Shown: in pieces, positions 17,894 to 33,929 of the stretch | Position numbering within the stretch: the first letter of the stretch is position 1 | Layout of the letters: each line of letters opens with the position of its first letter | Source: Podarcis gaigeae | Taxonomy: Eukaryota | Strand: one strand, 5' to 3' | Length of the DNA stretch: 64,000 nucleotides | Assembly: GCA_964106915.2 (NCBI GenBank) | Contig: OZ066921.1 | Made by a program: the position numbers and the translations under genes | The notes under the pieces: model-generated | Databases searched by the model: none | Told to the model about the DNA's origin: nothing | The model's input: only the letters and a program-made list of their open reading frames with translations

Positions 17894-20800
17894 TCACAAG
17901 AGCCCCAGATTCTTCATCGTCCGCCATCGGTCCTTGATCGCCACAGGAGTGCGGTTCTTAAAGGGGAATGCCTGGGAAATGGCTTTCCACCTCCCTTCCC
18001 CAAACTTCTTCACGCCTTCCTTAATCCACTGAGACTCCTCTGAAGTCCAGATCTAGAAAGAAGAGGGCATAGGCTCTCATGAGCAACCATCAAGTGCTGC
18101 AAGACTTGCCCCTTGTCCCCATGACAGAATGACAGATACCCCACCCTCTGGAGATGGTTCCATGGCTGTTGCTAACAGAGGATTGCCACTGACATGGGAT
18201 GTAGCCCAGTAACTCACAGCAGGCAAATATCCAGCCCATATTTCAAGACATTAAACCCAACTTGGTGGCACACATAGTCCTCCTTCTGCAATATGTGGGT
18301 AATAAAAATAAAATTCTGCCTCCTTAAAGTGTGGTTGAAGAGGCCATCAAAGATAGCAGATATAATGTGCTGAGATTGCCCAGGCTTCTTTGAATCCCCT
18401 GGGTATCTAAGACCCTTGATTATTTATTTAATTAATTAATTAGGAGAGGCCCCTTAGTCCAGTGGTTGAACATGCAGAAGATCCCAGCTTCAAACCTGTG
18501 ACAACTCCAGGTAGAGCCACGAAAGAGACACCTGGCCTGAAACCCTGTAGCACAGACAATACTGAGCTAGATGGACCAGGATTCAGCATATGGCAGCTTC
18601 CTATGTTCCCATTAATGGGGATTTCGACAGTTATTTCATTTGGGAGAGGGGGTCCTCATCAACTGGCCTCCATTTAGAGGGGTCTTGTCAAGGCAGGCCT
18701 ATTTCTCCCCACTGGAGTGCTCAGCTCCAGACTGGGTGTAGGCTTGGTTACCTTCTTTTTCGAACCAAAGAGGGAAGTGTTGATGCTGCTGCTGCCTTCT
18801 TCCTTCGATTCTGAAACACAAATTCATTTACAAACTTTATGGGATGCATGGAACCACTCGGTAAGCTGGTTATTGCTACTGGCTCAGCAGTTGGGAGGTT
18901 TTACCACTACTGCACCTCATCAGAAATCCAGGGTAGTGGTCAAATTCCACCCAGCCCTTGGCATGATGTGTACAGTCTACTACTGATGGAACTATGTTAG
19001 GGTTGCCATACATCCAGGGCATCCCAGACATGTCCTCTTTTGGACAGGCCCACCCAGGGGAATTTTTACATTTTAAAGGAAATGTCCGGGATTGTAGGGA
19101 GGGGTTATTTATTCATTTATTGCTTGGCCAACTCTACACACCACTGCTGCCGCCAGCCCAAGCTGGGAAAAGAAGAATGTAGGTGCACTTCCTTCCCTGG
19201 CTCAGGCTGTCCTCTTTTTGCTCTTCAAGATATGGCAACCCTAAACTATGTGGCAAACAGTCATCCATGTTCACTCACAGTTGCCATCTCATTCTAGCAC
19301 GGTTCACAAAATTTATTACTTTGTTTTGCAAGATGTTTAGCAGGTTTTGAGAGTTTTGCTTTTAGCTAGTCTGGGCATTGCCTAAGCAAGCCTCCTGAAG
19401 GACCGCAGTTAACCGTTCTCTTTGCTTGCCATGCTGGCAATGTTTTTCCCCATGTCATTGCGATGTCACTGGGTAATGCAATGTGAGAAGCCATCAAAAC
19501 TGCACAGCTGCTTTAATTAGAAGAGTGCATGGAGCTACAATTGAGCATCATGCAGAACAAGAAGCCAGTCTGAGGCAAAAGGCAGTAATTTTGTCAGTGC
19601 TGCTGCTGTGCACTTGGGAGTAGGTAGTCCAAATATTTTACTTTTCTGATCCAAGAGCTGTGCCCCCAAATCCCTCTGCTTACTATATACAGGATACTAG
19701 CTGCTTACCAAAAAGTTCATCCTCATCACTCCAGACCTCCTTTTCTTCATCCCGATTTAAACAAATTAGTCTCCTCTTTGCTAATCTGAATGGAACAGAG
19801 AAACACAAGTAAGGAAAGACCTACCCCACAAGGAGATGAGACGGGACTGAGCTGCATCAATTAATGTCGCACACAACCAGGATTATGGAGATGCTGGGTT
19901 AAGTATCAGAAAAGGAGCGAGGTTAATTTCTCACAGCAAACACACCACTGCAGAGACCTATGGCAGCTTAAATATGAGCAAATAGCTGGCGGCAGAAACA
20001 CAAACCCTTATCCTTGGTACAGACGGAAGGAGGGAGGGGGGAGAGAAATAACATTTCTACCTTCTGTCTGGCAACTGAAGCTAACATTCCAGGCATCTGA
20101 CAAAGCAGAGTCCGGCACAGGTGTTTCTGTCACAATAAATTTGTTTAGCAATCTTTAATGGGGCCAGAGACCGTATTGTCAATTCTGCTATCTTTGCAAT
20201 TTGAGTAATAAAAATTAAGACAAGGTATGTGAACCAGATTCTCTCGCAATCTGCTTCTACTAGCTGGGGGAGAAGATGCACAGCGATGCAACCCTACCAC
20301 TGCAAACCACCTTTGCCTTCCTTGGAGCTTCTGGACTGAGGCCTAAGGCCTTCTAATGGATTCCTTGCAAAGGTGAAAGTTGCACCAAATGCCTCATGCT
20401 GTGCCAGATCCCCAGCAGACCCCACAGCAGTCATAGCCTCTTACCTGGGATATCGGGAGGTATCATCAGGCTGGGTGGATTTTTGGGGCTGTGCAGGCCG
20501 GACAACCAAAGTTGCCACAGGCCTCTTGGATGGAACTCGGCAGGAAGTTGGGGGGTTCCAGCTCTCTGACCCCATAACCAATGTGCTTATGGACACTGAG
20601 CGTTCACTGGGGTGCAGCCTGGACGCAGCACGGTTCTTCTCCATTTGGCACTTGGCTGCGTGGAAATCAGAAGCCAAACATGGCTTGGGGAAAGTCCAGT
20701 CCAACTTGTCCAGTTTTGAAAACTCTTCATCTGCATCTGGGGAATTGGACAGGATCTTGAAAGCATCCCTCAGAGTAGAAAACCCATACGAGCCCATCCT

Positions 20801-23800
20801 CTTAGGCGAGCATCTGCAAAATAAAGAAACATCAGAAGGTTGCTCCACAAGTTTTGCCAATTTATGTTGCTGACCTCACCCCCAAGACCTTGCTCCCCTG
20901 GCAGCAGGTGCAATTTGAGTCTGAGTGCTGAGAGCCAGAAGTTGTATGACAAAACAGCTGCCCAGCATGGCAAAGGGAGTCAAAACTGTAAGAGGCCATA
21001 GGCTGCTAACCTGTCAGAGTCACTGGAAACTGCTGAGACAGTGGCAACAGCAACCACAGCAGGCTCTGCAGCTCCACTGGTTTCTTCTTCTGGCTTTGAA
21101 GCTGCCTGGCACTCATCAACCACTTTAGCAAGCTCCAAAACAGCTCGCTTTGCCTCCATCAAAGGCTTTGCAACTGTCTCACGGCCTCCCTCCAGAGACT
21201 TTGGCTGTTCTTCCACTGTATTTCTAGGCCCTGTCTCAGGCCGGGGCTCTTCCAAAGTCTCATCAGATCTTCCCACAGATTCAGGATTATCTGCTGCCGC
21301 CACCTCTGAGGTTTCTTTCACCATTTCCTCTTTGCTGGCCATTTCCAAAGGATTGAGCCTGGTCTCTATCTGATCATCCAAATCCCTTTTTGCCATCTTA
21401 AACAGAGAATGTGAACACAGTTACTAGAGAACACTTCTCAACTTTATTTTCTTTTTTCTAGTTATATACAGCAGCCATGCCCAAGCTGGTGCCCTGAAGA
21501 TGCTTTACCTACAAATCCCCTAATTGTAGGGCCTCACGATGCTGGAGCTGTTGGGAATTGCTAGTCCAAAACATTGTCAGGTTACAAGCTTGATATATGT
21601 CAAATGTGACATTGGAGCCCTGTGCTGTTCTGCTGTGGGGTATATTTCCCAAACACATAATAGTTTGGCCAGGGAGGCTTCTGTCTTAAGCCTCAGGTGC
21701 TGAATGTACCTTTTTTATCACAGTGTTTAGACGGCAAGAGTTCTGCTGTGGCAATGTAGGTGATATTGAAGTGCTCCAGCAACACACAGAAATATATGAA
21801 GAAAGCAAGCTGCCTTTTGCCAAGCCAGACCAATGGTTCATATAGTTTCCTATCACCACATATTGAGTGACAGCTGCTCTCCAGGGTTTCAAGCAGGGGA
21901 CATTCCCAGTCCTACCTAGAGATGCCAGGGATTGACCTTGGGACCTTCTGCATGCAAAGTAGATGTTTGACTACTAAGCTATACTCCCACTACAACACCC
22001 CACATCTCAATCAAGCAGCACTCCACACCCTTGCTTACCTCTAAGAGAAAGGGCTCAGAGTCACTCAAGCAGCTTTCTAAATACAGAAGTATTCTTTGCT
22101 GGAAAGCTTTATAGGAGAAGTTCCAGATGGCTGGATGAGCGAAGTTTTTTTCTCGGATGATGCTCTGGAACATTGACCTCATTTTCTATGCAAGGGGAAA
22201 TGTTTTTCAGTAACTGCAAGCAAATTGCAGCACAGGGCAGAGATAAAAGCAATTTTTGCAGTCATTAGAAGTTTAAACAAAACAAGCCAAACCACCAGAG
22301 CAATCTAGGTAATGTAAAAAATGCATGAAAGTAATGATGACTAGAGATGTGGACCACAATCTGTAGCAACATGGGCTGCTTGTGCATGCATTTTTTCTCA
22401 TTGCATAAGGGGGACAATAAACTCTCAAGTATTTAAGACACTCACTGAATTGGAGAATGTGGGAAGGACAAACCATGACTCTGCTTTGCAGTGAAACGAC
22501 CCTATAAGAGGCACATTTCAACAACAACAGCAGCGACATGAACTCATACCTGCTGAAAGCTCACCTGGGAACTTGGGTCCTTTGACATGTGTTTCCTCAA
22601 GATCCTGCTGGCTTGTTCATATTCTTTGTTTTTTAGACAGATTATAACAGCCTGGAGAAGACAAAATAATGGTTTGCAAGGAAGACTTTGGGAGACTGTT
22701 CCTAATCTAAGAAGATACTGTTCGAGAGATATCCCTCTGGAAATTTTCTAGATCTGCTTCACATTTTCAACCCAGTGTGTTTTCATTGTGTAATATTAGA
22801 CCACTTATTAAAGAATTTAAAAAATCAAGTAAGGCAAGTTACTTAAAAGTCTGTAGGCTAACAACATTGAAATAATGTATGCCTCGGGAGAGTCCAGAAG
22901 CCAGCTTTTCCTGGATTGCCCCCGAAGGAAACAAGTCTTCAAAACATGCTGAGTTCCAATAAACCCAGGCACTTCTGAGGAGACATTTCTCTTTCATTTC
23001 ATCCCAACATATAGGAATCGTGCCTCCTTGCTTCTATTAATTTTTGTGAACTTATTTAAAAGTCCAATTTAAGCATGGAGAAAAATAGGCAAGAGTTAAT
23101 CCTGGCATTGAATTAGCACCTTAATTAAACCCTTTCCTAAATATACTGCATTTTGAAACTCAAGACAGCTGTCCTCATACTAACTAGGCTGAGAAACAGT
23201 AATCAGTGCCTACAGAAGAGGAAATGCTAACACTTACTGCTTCCTTTATTTTATTTCTTATTTCTTCTATTATATCAATGCCTATGTCCAATTCATTCTT
23301 CATCTTATCCAAAAGAACAAGGGCATATTCAAGAGGTGTTAACTTGGTCTTGGTATCAATGGTCCAATCTTCTTCAATCCTAGACAGAAGCTGGATAATC
23401 CGCAGCTGAATGCCAATGCGTTTCTCTAGCACTAGGGGCCTTGCAAGCACAGCTGGAGAAGAACAAGACAGTCAAAACAGCCACCAAGCAAAATCAGATA
23501 GTTCAGCAAACCAGGTGTAACGAGGCTTGGGTAAGGCACCAAAGCCCTGTCCCATATATTGTATCCCTGGCCATATACAGGCAGATAGCTTCATTCCAAC
23601 ATGCCCTTTGGCCCAGGAATCACTTTGCATTTGCTTGTTTTTTTTGTGTGTGATCTACAATATCCTTTAGTATCTATATATACACAAACACACACTTTTT
23701 TTTTAGTGTCTTAATCTTTGTGGTGAGAGATCTTGCTGGAGCTCCAGTTTTGTGGGGCAGAAATGCAGTATGTACAGATTTTATTTATAATAATAATAAA

Positions 23801-25088
23801 TAATAATAATAATTTTTATTTATACCCTGCCCTCCCTAGCCAAGGCTGGGCTCAGGGCGGCTAACAAGCAATAATAAAAACAAGTTGAATGATTACAACT
23901 TAAAAACAAAATTAAAATACAACATTAAAATATTGAAACATTAAAACACTCCAAAGGTGCTAGGCCATTCCTAATGGTTGGCGTCTGGAAACCATCACAC
24001 TCAACTACAAGCCACACCAAAAACTCATTAAACTCAATCTCTTAATACACACATCAACATTCTCCAATTTGAAATAGATTTCATGAAGGCTCTGAAGTTT
24101 TCAGGTACTTAGGGGGCTAAAGACGGCCTGGGGGGGATCCTAACCCTTCTCCTGACCATCTGTGATGGGCTTTAGGAAGTATTCATTTAAGGGGGGATGT
24201 ATGTATCCTAACCATCTTCCTGAGAATCACAGCTGGCTGTTTTCAGACCTTCCTTCTGGGTTCTGTGCTGTTGGTTAGTTGTACTTTGTGCATTTTCTTT
24301 AAAAATCATTATTGGATGAATTTCTCCCCAAATTGATTTTAGAACTTTGAATTTATTGTTATTTACACTTTTATACTGTATTTTATGCTGTTTTTTTGTT
24401 GTATCACAATTGTTTTAAATTTGTTAGCCACCCTGAGCCCGGTTTTCTGAACTGGGAAGGGCGGGGTATAAATAAAAAAATATTATTATTTCCCTTAATG
24501 TCTAAAGGCAAATGACAAACGTTCCAGGGACACAGACTGTATTATATTTTAAGTTGCTTTAGGTTCATTATTTCTTAAATGAAAGCACCTAATGACTATT
24601 AAATGTAATATATGAATGTAAATAAGTAACAATGACATAAGTGGAACCAGGGCAATTACGTGACATATTTTAATGCTTGATGTTTTAGTATGTTCTGATA
24701 TGTGCTGTGAGCCGCCCAGAGTGGCTGAGGAAACCCAGCCAGATGGGCGGCGTATAACTAATAAAATTATTATTATTAGTTATTTACACTCACGTTCCTT
24801 AGCAGGAAATACCTTTACAGTTATTTAACCCAGCGAGAATGTTCCCCAAATGCCCCTTTCGTAAAACAAACTGGTCTCCTCACCGTATATGACGTCGCGC
24901 AGCTGGCGAAAGTCCTGGCTGCGACCGGCCCGGAAAGCCTGAAGGGCCCGGTGGGCGTAGAAGAGGATGGCCCACCGGTTCACCGCCTCCTCCAAGGCCT
25001 TTTCGCGAGCCTCCGCGGCTCCTCCGGGCGATGCAGCAAGAGACGCTCCCGGGCTGCCGCCCGCCATCTTCCCTCTCCCGCGCGCCAT
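17894..25088 (-). CDS. TERF2: Telomeric repeat-binding factor 2 (9 coding exons, about 567 aa)
   Basis: Exons 25088-24884, 23452-23238, 22651-22565, 22185-22039, 21396-21011, 20813-20445, 19785-19709, 18810-18752, 18052-17894 (1704 nt, in phase). TRFH (LEEAVNRW...DFRQLRD; LTPLE; [10 protein letters not shown]), RAP1-binding motif ([11 protein letters not shown]...FSKLD), iDDR-like [13 protein letters not shown], Myb/telobox ([21 protein letters not shown]...IKDRWRTMK). AATAAA (minus) at 17566-17571. Confidence 0.96.
18445..18610 (+). mobile_element. Degenerate tRNA-derived squamate SINE (family not named)
   Basis: Shares ...cacagacaatactgagctagatggacc... and head motifs with copies at about 285-445 (+), 13765-13940 (-), 21800-21985 (-) and 59060-59190 (-). 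Confidence 0.55.
18998..19243. mobile_element. hAT-superfamily MITE in a TERF2 intron
   Basis: TIRs TAGGGTTGCCATA / TATGGCAACCCTA; perfect 8-bp TSD aactatgt at 18990-18997 and 19244-19251. Confidence 0.9.
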
Positions 25089-32213: not shown

Positions 32214-33628
32214 TTTTTTAAAAAAAATAATATTTATTACTTTCCCAACAATTTAAACACTACAAAGGGAAAAAAAAGTTAAACAATACAATACAATACA
32301 AAAACAAAGACACTACATAACACTAACACTAAAACATTAAACTAACAAAACAAAACAAAATCAATTTAAGACACATTAAACAATTTCAATATCTTTCATT
32401 CACTTGTTTCAACGACCTCATCCCACCTCCTTTTTTGTATTCCACTTCAGTTAACTGTTTCAGCAATTCCTTTCCATCTTCCTCTGTTTTTTGTCCTGTA
32501 ATTATCTTAACATATTCTAACCTTATTTTTTCCCTTTAATACATTAATAATCTATTTGTACTTAGTTCCCTATAACATTTCTACTAAAGCCATATAACTT
32601 CATTCCAACATTTTTCTAACATTCATTGATTTTACAGTATTTCTGTAAATAGTCTTTAAACTTTTTCCAGTCTTCTTCCACCGATTCTCCTCCCTGGTCT
32701 CGGATTCTGCCAGTCATTTCCGCCAGTTCCATATAGTCCATCAACTTCATCTGCCATTCTTCCTGGGTGGGTAAATCTTGTGTCTTCCAATACTTCGCGA
32801 TGAGTATTCTTGCTGCTGTTGTTGCATACATAAAAAAAGTTCTGTCCTTCTTTGGCACCAGTTGGCCAACCATACCCAGGAGAAAGGCCTCTGGTTTCTT
32901 CAGGAAGGTATATTTAAATACTATAATCATTTCATTATAAATCATCTCCCAGAATGTCTTAATCCTTGGGCATGTCCACCAAAGGTGAAAGAATGTACCT
33001 TCAGTCTCATTACATTTCCAACATTTATTGTCAGGTAAATTATACATTTTTGCAAGCTTGACTGGTGTCATGTACCACCTGTAAATCATTTTCATTAAAT
33101 TCTCTCTTAGGGCATTACATGCCATAAATTTCATACCTGTGGTCCATAACTGTTCCCAGTCAGCCATCATTATGTTATGTCCAACGTCGTGTGCCCATTT
33201 TATCGTAGCTGATTTCACCATTTCATCCTGAGTGTTCCATTTCAACAGCAAGTTATACATTCTTGACAAGTTCTTAATTTTTGAATCTAACAATTCTGTT
33301 TCCAATTTTGATTTTTCCACCTGGAAACCAACTTTTTTGCCCAAATTGTATGCCTCCATTATTTGGTAATAATGGAGCCAATCTCGCACTTTGTTTTTCA
33401 ATTTTTCAAAGCTCTGCAGTTTTATTCTGTCTCCATCTTGTTCCAGAATTTCCCAATATTTCGGCCATTTGGCCTCCATATTGAGCTTTTTCTGTGCCTT
33501 CGCTTCCATTGGTGACAACCATCTTGGGGTTTTCTTTTCTAACAAATCCTTGTATCTTATCCAAACATTAAACAATGCTTTTCTAACAATATGGTTTTTG
33601 AACTCTTTATGTGCTTTTACCTTATCAT
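32214..33628 (-). mobile_element. Young 5'-truncated L1-clade LINE (ORF2 C-terminus, 3' UTR, A tail)
   Basis: Uninterrupted ORF2 C-terminal frame 32616-33638 with zf-RVT motif RWYMTP...CWKC...GTFFHLWWTC; AATAAA (minus) near 32233; perfect 18-bp TSD aggagcgcatattgtttc at 32196-32213 and 33629-33646. Confidence 0.93.
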
Positions 33629-33929
33629 AGGAGCGCATATTGTTTCACTTCTATGGCCAAGCACAGGCATCTCCCAAGGGTAGAAGTTCTCTCATGGAGA
33701 AGGCCCCTGCAGCTGCCCTTGGACCCGTGGCTTGAGGAAGAGGTGCCAGCTCCGGGGGTAAATCTGCACAGTCCTGAGAGCTCTGGTGAGGGGAGAGGGG
33801 CAACATTTGAAGACCCAGTTTGTTTGTATTTCAGTGGTAAGGGGGTTGTGCCCTGGCACCTAATGCAGGCTTTGCAGCAGTGACTGGGAGGTTATCCTAG
33901 GAATTGCACCCATGCAGAATAAAAGGGGG

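What the first reader, a model, noticed from the sequence alone, without database searches (positions are those of the whole stretch)
23238..23452. TRF2 TRFH peptide-docking loop remodelled: 4-aa deletion and F120-equivalent changed to Ile
Seen: the exon translates ...[24 protein letters not shown]. Known (recalled human TRF2): [26 protein letters not shown]. GENL is missing and D-C-S-F120-D reads D-W-T-I-D. F120 and this loop (L34) form the TRFH pocket that binds [Y/F/H]xLxP motifs of Apollo/SNM1B, SLX4, NBS1 and MCPH1; F120A abolishes such binding in mammals. Inference: this lizard TRF2 may have lost or rewired accessory-factor recruitment while keeping RAP1, TIN2, iDDR and Myb elements, which would be a lineage-specific variant of shelterin end processing.
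Basis: partly seen in the sequence, partly recalled or inferred. Interest (0 to 1): 0.75.

Follow-up and report, generated by a model that had tools for sequence, protein, structure and literature searches.

The report
Squamate TRF2 lost its docking phenylalanine
In every lizard and snake sampled, but not in tuatara, turtles, crocodiles, birds or mammals, the telomere protein TRF2 lacks four residues and the key phenylalanine of the site that recruits the end-trimming nuclease Apollo, so squamates likely recruit telomere helpers more weakly or differently than other land vertebrates, which is untested.

Summary
The window holds an intact, spliced TERF2 gene of a Podarcis-like lacertid. GENL is missing, C118 is Trp and F120 is non-aromatic in 31 of 31 squamate species, geckos to snakes. 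Tuatara, turtles, crocodilians, birds and mammals keep the long loop and Phe, and so does squamate TRF1. The change therefore dates to the squamate stem, where helices 2-5 also changed about five times more than the rest of the domain. The four lost residues are exactly the end of ancestral exon 2. In this lizard the intron behind them is also gone, fusing two exons. Tyr/Leu-pocket residues are largely kept, the Pro-stacking Phe is not, and the loop is relaxed except for the fixed Trp. Docking is most likely weakened or respecified rather than dead; full compensation by Trp is not excluded. SLX4, NBS1 and MCPH1 are irrelevant because their motifs are mammalian; only Apollo and PNUTS matter, and I could not obtain their squamate sequences. 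Nine literature searches and two scan look-ups found no earlier report.

The parts
24884..25088 (-). TERF2 coding exon 1 (N-terminus, TRFH helix 1 and start of helix 2)
   Evidence: 3' end confirmed by the RNA-type joint 23452>24884
23238..23452 (-). TERF2 exon 2 of this lizard = ancestral exons 2+3 fused (84+131 nt); TRFH helices 2-5 and the docking loop
   Evidence: ancestral boundary from exon-skipping models of turtles (P0272, P0275) and Phrynosoma (P0048)
23368..23369 (-). Junction inside the Asp codon (human D117) where the four codons for GENL and the ancestral phase-1 intron are missing
   Evidence: boundary inferred from gene models of other species
23364..23366 (-). TGG, Trp at the human C118 position; invariant in 31 of 31 squamate orthologues
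23358..23360 (-). ATT, Ile at the human F120 position (squamates: I 23, T 5, V 2, M 1 of 31)
22565..22651 (-). TERF2 exon 3 (87 nt, TRFH)
22039..22185 (-). TERF2 exon 4 (147 nt, end of TRFH)
21011..21396 (-). TERF2 exon 5 (hinge)
   Evidence: boundaries by GT-AG and match to P0002, no reads laid
20445..20813 (-). TERF2 exon 6: RAP1-binding motif and TIN2-binding motif
   Evidence: PF16772 E=2.7e-16
19709..19785 (-). TERF2 exon 7: acidic Trp motif of the iDDR
   Evidence: motif description in PMC8653790
18752..18810 (-). TERF2 exon 8
17894..18052 (-). TERF2 exon 9: Myb domain with KDRWR, and stop codon
   Evidence: PF00249 E=7e-15

Best explanation
This is the ordinary, intact TRF2 gene of a wall lizard, and it carries a squamate-wide change: the docking loop is four residues shorter, Cys118 is a fixed Trp and Phe120 is non-aromatic, which likely weakens or respecifies binding of Apollo-type YxLxP motifs without abolishing the groove. 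Shown: the distribution (all squamates sampled, no other amniote), the exon fusion in this genome, and retention of D81, L101, R102, R109, E111/E112, RBM, iDDR and Myb. Inferred steps: (1) on the squamate stem the last 12 nt of exon 2 were lost from the mRNA, more likely (about 60:40) because the Gly-Glu codons became a new GT donor than by a 12-nt genomic deletion; (2) C118W and F120I, each reachable by one base change, and many changes in helices 2-5 were fixed on the same branch; (3) the Trp likely repacks the shortened loop against the helices, the peptide's Tyr and Leu can still enter the groove, but its Pro loses the aromatic ring it stacks on; (4) weaker Apollo docking would be tolerable because RAP1-dependent block of NHEJ is a parallel protection in mammals and the RAP1-binding motif is kept; (5) later, in the lacertid line, the intron itself was lost precisely.
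For: Distribution. Outside squamate TRF2, 104 of 110 other TRFH segments have Phe or Tyr at this place and 2 of 110 have the gap. Contacts in human TRF2-MCPH1: D81, E94, S98, L101, R102, R109, F120 (PMC7672075). In 31 squamates D81, L101, R102, R109 are 31/31 and E94 28/31, but S98 is replaced (R/L/H/G/Q and others), F120 is 0/31, and M83, Q84, M104 (32-33 of 33 in other amniotes) are largely replaced. Stem branch 1.02 changes/site over residues 77-160 (bootstrap 0.53-1.66) against 0.21 (0.11-0.35) in the rest of TRFH and 0.27 (0.06-0.57) in Myb. The three 15-column windows spanning 111-139 have the highest squamate/non-squamate rate ratio, 4.1-6.8, against at most 3.4 in the other 33: the special constraint on the loop has gone. 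F120A abolishes SLX4 and MCPH1 binding; the partner's P-to-A change weakens MCPH1 binding 100-fold. Fold kept: TM 0.83-0.86 over human TRF2 TRFH chains in the top three hits, loop pLDDT about 82. Redundancy of Apollo and RAP1: PMC12221994.
Against: The invariant Trp could replace F120 fully. PMC8653790 says the motif is present in amniote Apollo and PNUTS, and Pogona was the squamate in those alignments (figure not seen). L101, R102 and R109 may be kept for the fold, so they do not prove a working groove. A simple count of lost invariant positions in 77-160 against the rest of TRFH was not significant (Fisher p=0.065, or 0.15 with the gap as one event). The loop ratio rests on 15 columns (bootstrap 2.2-64). 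The AF2 alignment held 9 bird/mammal rows among 32, and coordinates were not returned, so where the Trp lies is not known. Intron positions in other squamates come from protein models only.
Confidence: 0.5

Rival explanations
1. Compensated site: the new Trp takes over stacking on the peptide Pro, squamate Apollo and PNUTS keep YxLxP and bind with about normal affinity; the change is a structural substitution with little effect on telomere processing.
For: Trp 31 of 31 in orthologues while its neighbours drift; it changes to Phe in a fast-evolving second copy (P0013); most Tyr/Leu-pocket residues kept; motif reported for amniote Apollo/PNUTS in alignments that included Pogona.
Against: By descent Trp is C118, not F120 (exon 3 is collinear, D-W-T-I-D against D-C-T-F-D). 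S98, Q84, M83, M104 also changed. A fixed Trp can equally be a packing residue replacing the lost invariant L116.
Confidence: 0.3
2. Dead site: squamate TRF2 no longer binds YxLxP motifs; Apollo and PNUTS reach telomeres by another route (for example TRF1, whose loop and Phe are intact) or not at all, and leading-end telomeres rely on RAP1 or another nuclease.
For: F120A abolishes binding in human TRF2; geckos have Thr there (5 of 31); loop constraint relaxed; squamate TRF1 keeps the four residues and Phe in 4 of 4 records; RBM kept.
Against: Reported persistence of the Apollo motif in amniotes; iDDR is kept, and in mouse F120A with an intact iDDR gives short overhangs and leading-end fusions (PMC10497418); Ile is a milder change than Ala.
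Confidence: 0.17
3. Artefact, decaying copy or a quirk of one lizard.
For: Lacertids do carry a second, diverged TERF2 copy.
Against: This copy has an unbroken 567-codon frame, 545 of 567 identical to P. lilfordi TRF2, with GT-AG introns; it lies next to COG8, NIP7 and TMED6-type genes; independent DNA and RNA-type contigs confirm it; the trait is in 31 of 31 squamate species.
Confidence: 0.02

Closest known systems
Human/mouse TRF2 (TERF2) TRFH docking site, PDB 3BUA, 4M7C, 5WQD, 7C5D
   Same: Same fold (TM 0.81-0.86), same domain order, D81/E94/L101/R102/R109 contacts and ORC-binding E111/E112 largely kept.
   Different: G113-L116 absent, C118W, F120 non-aromatic, S98/Q84/M83/M104 replaced; exons 2 and 3 fused in this lizard.
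Tuatara, turtle, crocodilian and bird TRF2
   Same: Orthologues; outside residues 77-160 tuatara is about as close to squamates as to birds (0.58-0.60 against 0.60-0.69; Myb 0.71 against 0.75).
   Different: All keep GENLDC[ST]F; in 77-127 and 128-160 tuatara-squamate identity is 0.50 and 0.33 against 0.76 and 0.64 to birds.
Engineered TRF2-F120A separation-of-function allele
   Same: Loses the aromatic ring at 120 while RAP1, TIN2, iDDR and Myb elements stay.
   Different: Natural, fixed for the whole order, Ile/Thr/Val/Met rather than Ala, with a shortened loop and a new Trp that may compensate.
Batoid (ray/skate) TRF2 lacking the F162 region
   Same: Another vertebrate TRF2 without the docking loop: Mobula P0111; Amblyraja was noted as a possible annotation error in PMC8653790 supplement.
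   Different: Whole loop missing, independent event, and in a group whose Apollo is reported to predate the motif.

Membership tests
Vertebrate TRF2 (TERF2) | TRFH domain | tested here: met
   phmmer to PDB; PF08558 on the 96%-identical P0002; AF2 model plus Foldseek
Vertebrate TRF2 (TERF2) | C-terminal telobox Myb with K-D-R-W-R | tested here: met
Vertebrate TRF2 (TERF2) | RAP1-binding motif, TIN2-binding motif and iDDR in the hinge | tested here: met
   PF16772; alignment with turtle, bird, mammal. Sequence only; the TIN2 motif is the least similar.
Vertebrate TRF2 (TERF2) | Closer to TRF2 than to TRF1; conserved neighbourhood | tested here: met
   50-54% identity to TRF2 chains against 24-28% to TRF1; COG8/NIP7/TMED6-type neighbours (human synteny recalled)
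Vertebrate TRF2 (TERF2) | TRFH homodimerisation and telomere binding | not testable with these tools
   Complex prediction not available
Canonical TRFH [Y/F/H]xLxP docking site | Aromatic residue at F120 (TRF2) / F142 (TRF1) stacking on the motif Pro | tested here: not met
   0 of 31 squamates
Canonical TRFH [Y/F/H]xLxP docking site | Full-length loop between helices 3 and 4 (G-x-x-L-D-x-x-F) | tested here: not met
   0 of 49 squamate TRF2 records
Canonical TRFH [Y/F/H]xLxP docking site | Tyr cleft and backbone contacts (E94, S98, L101, R102, R109, D81) | tested here: inconclusive
   five of six kept, S98 replaced
Canonical TRFH [Y/F/H]xLxP docking site | Cognate motif in same-species Apollo/PNUTS and measurable binding | not testable with these tools

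The most novel reading that the evidence does not exclude
Lizards and snakes, over 11,000 species, abandoned the TRF2-Apollo docking that is thought universal in amniotes: a splice-donor shift and a burst of substitutions closed the site on the squamate stem, and their leading-strand telomeres are now processed or protected by another route (Apollo handed to TRF1, a new Trp-based partner code, or RAP1-only protection of blunt ends).
Probability: 0.25. Interest if true: 0.8.

Novelty: new variant of a known kind. Interest (0 to 1): 0.55.

Why it matters
The TRF2 F120 site is treated as a vertebrate constant and Apollo docking as amniote-wide (PMC8653790). A whole amniote order with the site rebuilt is a natural separation-of-function experiment. 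It makes directly testable whether TRF2-tethered Apollo is needed to make telomeric overhangs, or whether RAP1-dependent protection (PMC12221994) can carry the load. If the Trp compensates, it shows a second way to build the pocket. The four-residue gap is also a clean molecular character for Squamata, and the fused exon an apparently precise intron loss in a vertebrate.

Tried and rejected
Whole genome: none held, so Apollo, PNUTS and RAP1 of this species could not be read. Complex prediction: not available; no dimer or peptide model. Run search: no RNA holder listed on record; the two runs with splice joints are RNA by guess only. Fisher test on lost invariant positions: not significant. The Myb row is invalid (run failed, stale values); repeated properly. 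One search had three exon boundaries off by one base; corrected. Alternative alignment placing Trp on F120: rejected, because exon 3 is collinear and D121 and T119 line up. Lizard-only, pseudogene and assembly-error readings: rejected. Literature searches found no paper describing the squamate loop; the library lacks most subscription papers, and Fig. S2A of PMC8653790 (a picture I could not see) probably shows the gap in at least one squamate without comment in the text. PMC5309834 and PMC3315331 passages held nothing on lizards. Scan look-ups gave nothing relevant. Dibamids were not sampled.

Full report
What is there. The minus strand at 23452-23238 is a 215-nt exon of TERF2. With eight other exons (25088-17894, all GT-AG) it gives an unbroken 567-codon frame, 545 of 567 identical to Podarcis lilfordi TRF2 (P0002), so the window is from a Podarcis-like lacertid. 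Neighbours are COG8-, NIP7- and TMED6-type genes on one side and DHODH and a DEAH helicase on the other (Pfam hits; gene names partly recalled). Against human TRFH chains in the PDB the exon shows the four-residue gap after RIEE and D-W-T-I-D opposite D-C-S-F-D. I laid 4 of the 24 listed runs: DNA contigs of X3 and X12 cross the exon unbroken with 0 and 1 differences, and X15 and X17 (RNA by guess) join the exon to its neighbours at the modelled splice sites.

How widespread. Three homologue searches (the last listed the best 120 of 420) and one profile search gave the panel. Of 49 squamate TRF2 records none has the long loop with Phe, 45 have the short loop, and 4 are deviant gene models discussed below (P0022, a fragment, and P0086, which lacks the region, were left out). 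With one orthologue for each of 31 species (geckos, skinks, cordylid, teiid, amphisbaenian, lacertids, anguimorphs, iguanians, snakes; second copies and mis-spliced models left out) the gap is 31/31, Trp at 118 is 31/31, and position 120 is I 23, T 5, V 2, M 1. Tuatara 2 of 2, turtles 36 of 38, crocodilians 4 of 4, birds 81 of 82 and mammals 25 of 25 records have the long loop with Phe; the three exceptions are splice variants that keep the Phe. Among 110 further TRFH segments from the profile search (mostly unnamed; those looked up were bird, turtle, amphibian, lungfish, coelacanth and ray TRF2 and frog and lizard TRF1) 97 have Phe, 7 Tyr, and 2 have the gap. Squamate TRF1 keeps loop and Phe in 4 of 4 records. 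The change is thus a shared derived trait of Squamata that arose after the split from tuatara. Dibamids were not sampled.

How the four residues were lost. I recalled an intron inside the D117 codon in human TERF2; the session's proteins support it independently. Two turtle isoforms jump from RDVMQ to DCTF, skipping 32 residues that end in GENL. A manakin model inserts 16 residues right after GENL. In squamates, the Phrynosoma model jumps from RDVIY to DWTID, and two Varanus models continue RIEE with G-E-C-G-E-P, which the window's DNA cannot give in any frame and which looks like read-through of a GT-GAG donor. So these squamates appear still to have the intron, with the donor 12 nt earlier. 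Ancestral Gly113-Glu114 codons can spell G/GTGAG, so a donor shift explains the exact loss; a 12-nt deletion at the exon end is the alternative. One unnamed fish-like TRF2 (P0139) lacks the same four residues but keeps Phe, which hints at a latent donor. In the window the intron is absent: 84+131 = 215 nt (131 is recalled and fits by subtraction). A second, roughly 90% identical copy seen in the reads also crosses the exon without a gap (X12 record 4), so the intron loss likely predates the lacertid duplication. These intron inferences rest on protein models, not on genomic DNA of those species. One Anolis-like model (P0023) has four other residues at the gap; I cannot explain it beyond a probable alternative acceptor.

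What changed around the pocket. In the human TRF2-MCPH1 structure the motif's Tyr sits against L101 and R102 and bonds to S98 and E94, its Leu is buried between helices 2 and 3, its Pro stacks on F120, and R109 and D81 make polar contacts (PMC7672075, passages). SLX4 and Apollo bind the same way and F120A abolishes SLX4 binding (PMC4334113, passages). In squamates D81, L101, R102, Q105, R109 are invariant, E94 is 28/31, and the ORC-binding E111/E112 (PMC8643664, passages) are 30/31 and 31/31. S98 is replaced, and M83, Q84, M104, nearly invariant in 33 other amniotes, are mostly replaced. On a fixed species tree of 26 sequences the squamate stem is 1.02 changes per site for residues 77-160 (100 bootstraps, 0.53-1.66), 0.21 (0.11-0.35) for the rest of TRFH and 0.27 (0.06-0.57) for Myb. 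Within squamates helices 2-3 stay constrained, but the loop no longer is: the three windows over 111-139 have rate ratios of 4.1-6.8, the other 33 at most 3.4. Against this, a plain count of lost invariant sites was not significant (p=0.065 or 0.15), and the loop estimate has wide bounds (2.2-64). The AF2 model of P0002 keeps the TRFH fold (TM 0.81-0.86 to TRF2 chains), with an ordered loop at residues 96-107, pLDDT about 82; coordinates were not returned, so the position of the Trp is unknown.

Which partners matter. PMC8653790 (section 7 in full, other passages, and the supplement's text; figures not visible) places the motif in amniote Apollo and PNUTS, placental NBS1, primate MCPH1 and haplorrhine SLX4. 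Pogona was the squamate in the Apollo and PNUTS alignments, and the text notes no exception; if the motif is indeed intact there, something still selects for it. The same paper lists Anolis, Pogona, Gekko, Python and Crotalus TRF2 among its accessions and remarks only on the skate's missing F162 region. In mouse, F120A with an intact iDDR gives short overhangs and leading-end fusions (PMC10497418, passages), but RAP1 and Apollo protect against classical NHEJ in parallel, and the RAP1 route is proposed to be older (PMC12221994, passages). Squamates keep RBM and iDDR. Chen et al. 2008 I did not read; the loop name L34 is recalled.

Verdict. Real, clade-wide and apparently unremarked in the nine searches made (species count from a search listing of PMC10379679). 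It is a TRF2 by every sequence feature tested, but its docking site fails two defining features of the canonical site. I put weakened or respecified docking at 0.5, full compensation by Trp at 0.3, a dead site with rerouting at 0.17, artefact at 0.02. The novel case (0.25) covers the dead site plus the strongly rewired end of the best explanation. Function is inferred only; the Apollo motif survey and one ITC series would decide it.

Noticed in passing
window 23238-23452: Exon is ancestral exons 2+3 fused: apparently precise loss of TERF2 intron 2 in lacertids, while Varanus and Phrynosoma gene models imply the intron is still present.
   Followed up: partly
P0155, P0013, P0086; reads over window 23072-23471: Lacertids carry a second, fast-evolving TERF2 copy on 47-51 Mb contigs (a size I recall for the lacertid Z chromosome, not checked). 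It nests among lacertid TRF2s, has W-to-F (Zootoca) or R109K (Podarcis), and a ~90% copy is spliced in RNA-type runs.
   Followed up: partly
   Followed up: no
P0111, P0228, P0229: TRF2 of Mobula rays lacks the whole docking loop (P0111 read; the other two are cluster members), suggesting the missing F162 region of the skate Amblyraja, called a possible annotation error in PMC8653790, is a real batoid loss.
   Followed up: partly
P0139: An unnamed fish-like TRF2 lacks exactly the same four residues but keeps Phe: possible independent use of the same latent donor.
   Followed up: no
P0023: An Anolis-like gene model has four different residues (DENK) filling the gap; probably an alternative acceptor, unexplained.
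   Followed up: no
P0272, P0275, P0048: In-frame skipping of ancestral exon 2 appears in turtle isoforms and a Phrynosoma model; exon fusion makes that isoform impossible in lacertids.
   Followed up: no
window 32619-33644 minus: 342-codon open frame between DHODH and the helicase gene that looks like the C-terminal part of a LINE ORF2 (recalled likeness; no Pfam hit).
   Followed up: no
window 24307-24490: A 181-183 nt repeat insertion in TERF2 intron 1 is absent from some contigs of all four runs laid: polymorphic, or specific to one of the two gene copies.
   Followed up: no
P0024: A Sceloporus record fuses TERF2 with the downstream TMED6 (PF01105), as expected from read-through between adjacent same-strand genes, an arrangement also seen in this window.
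   Followed up: no
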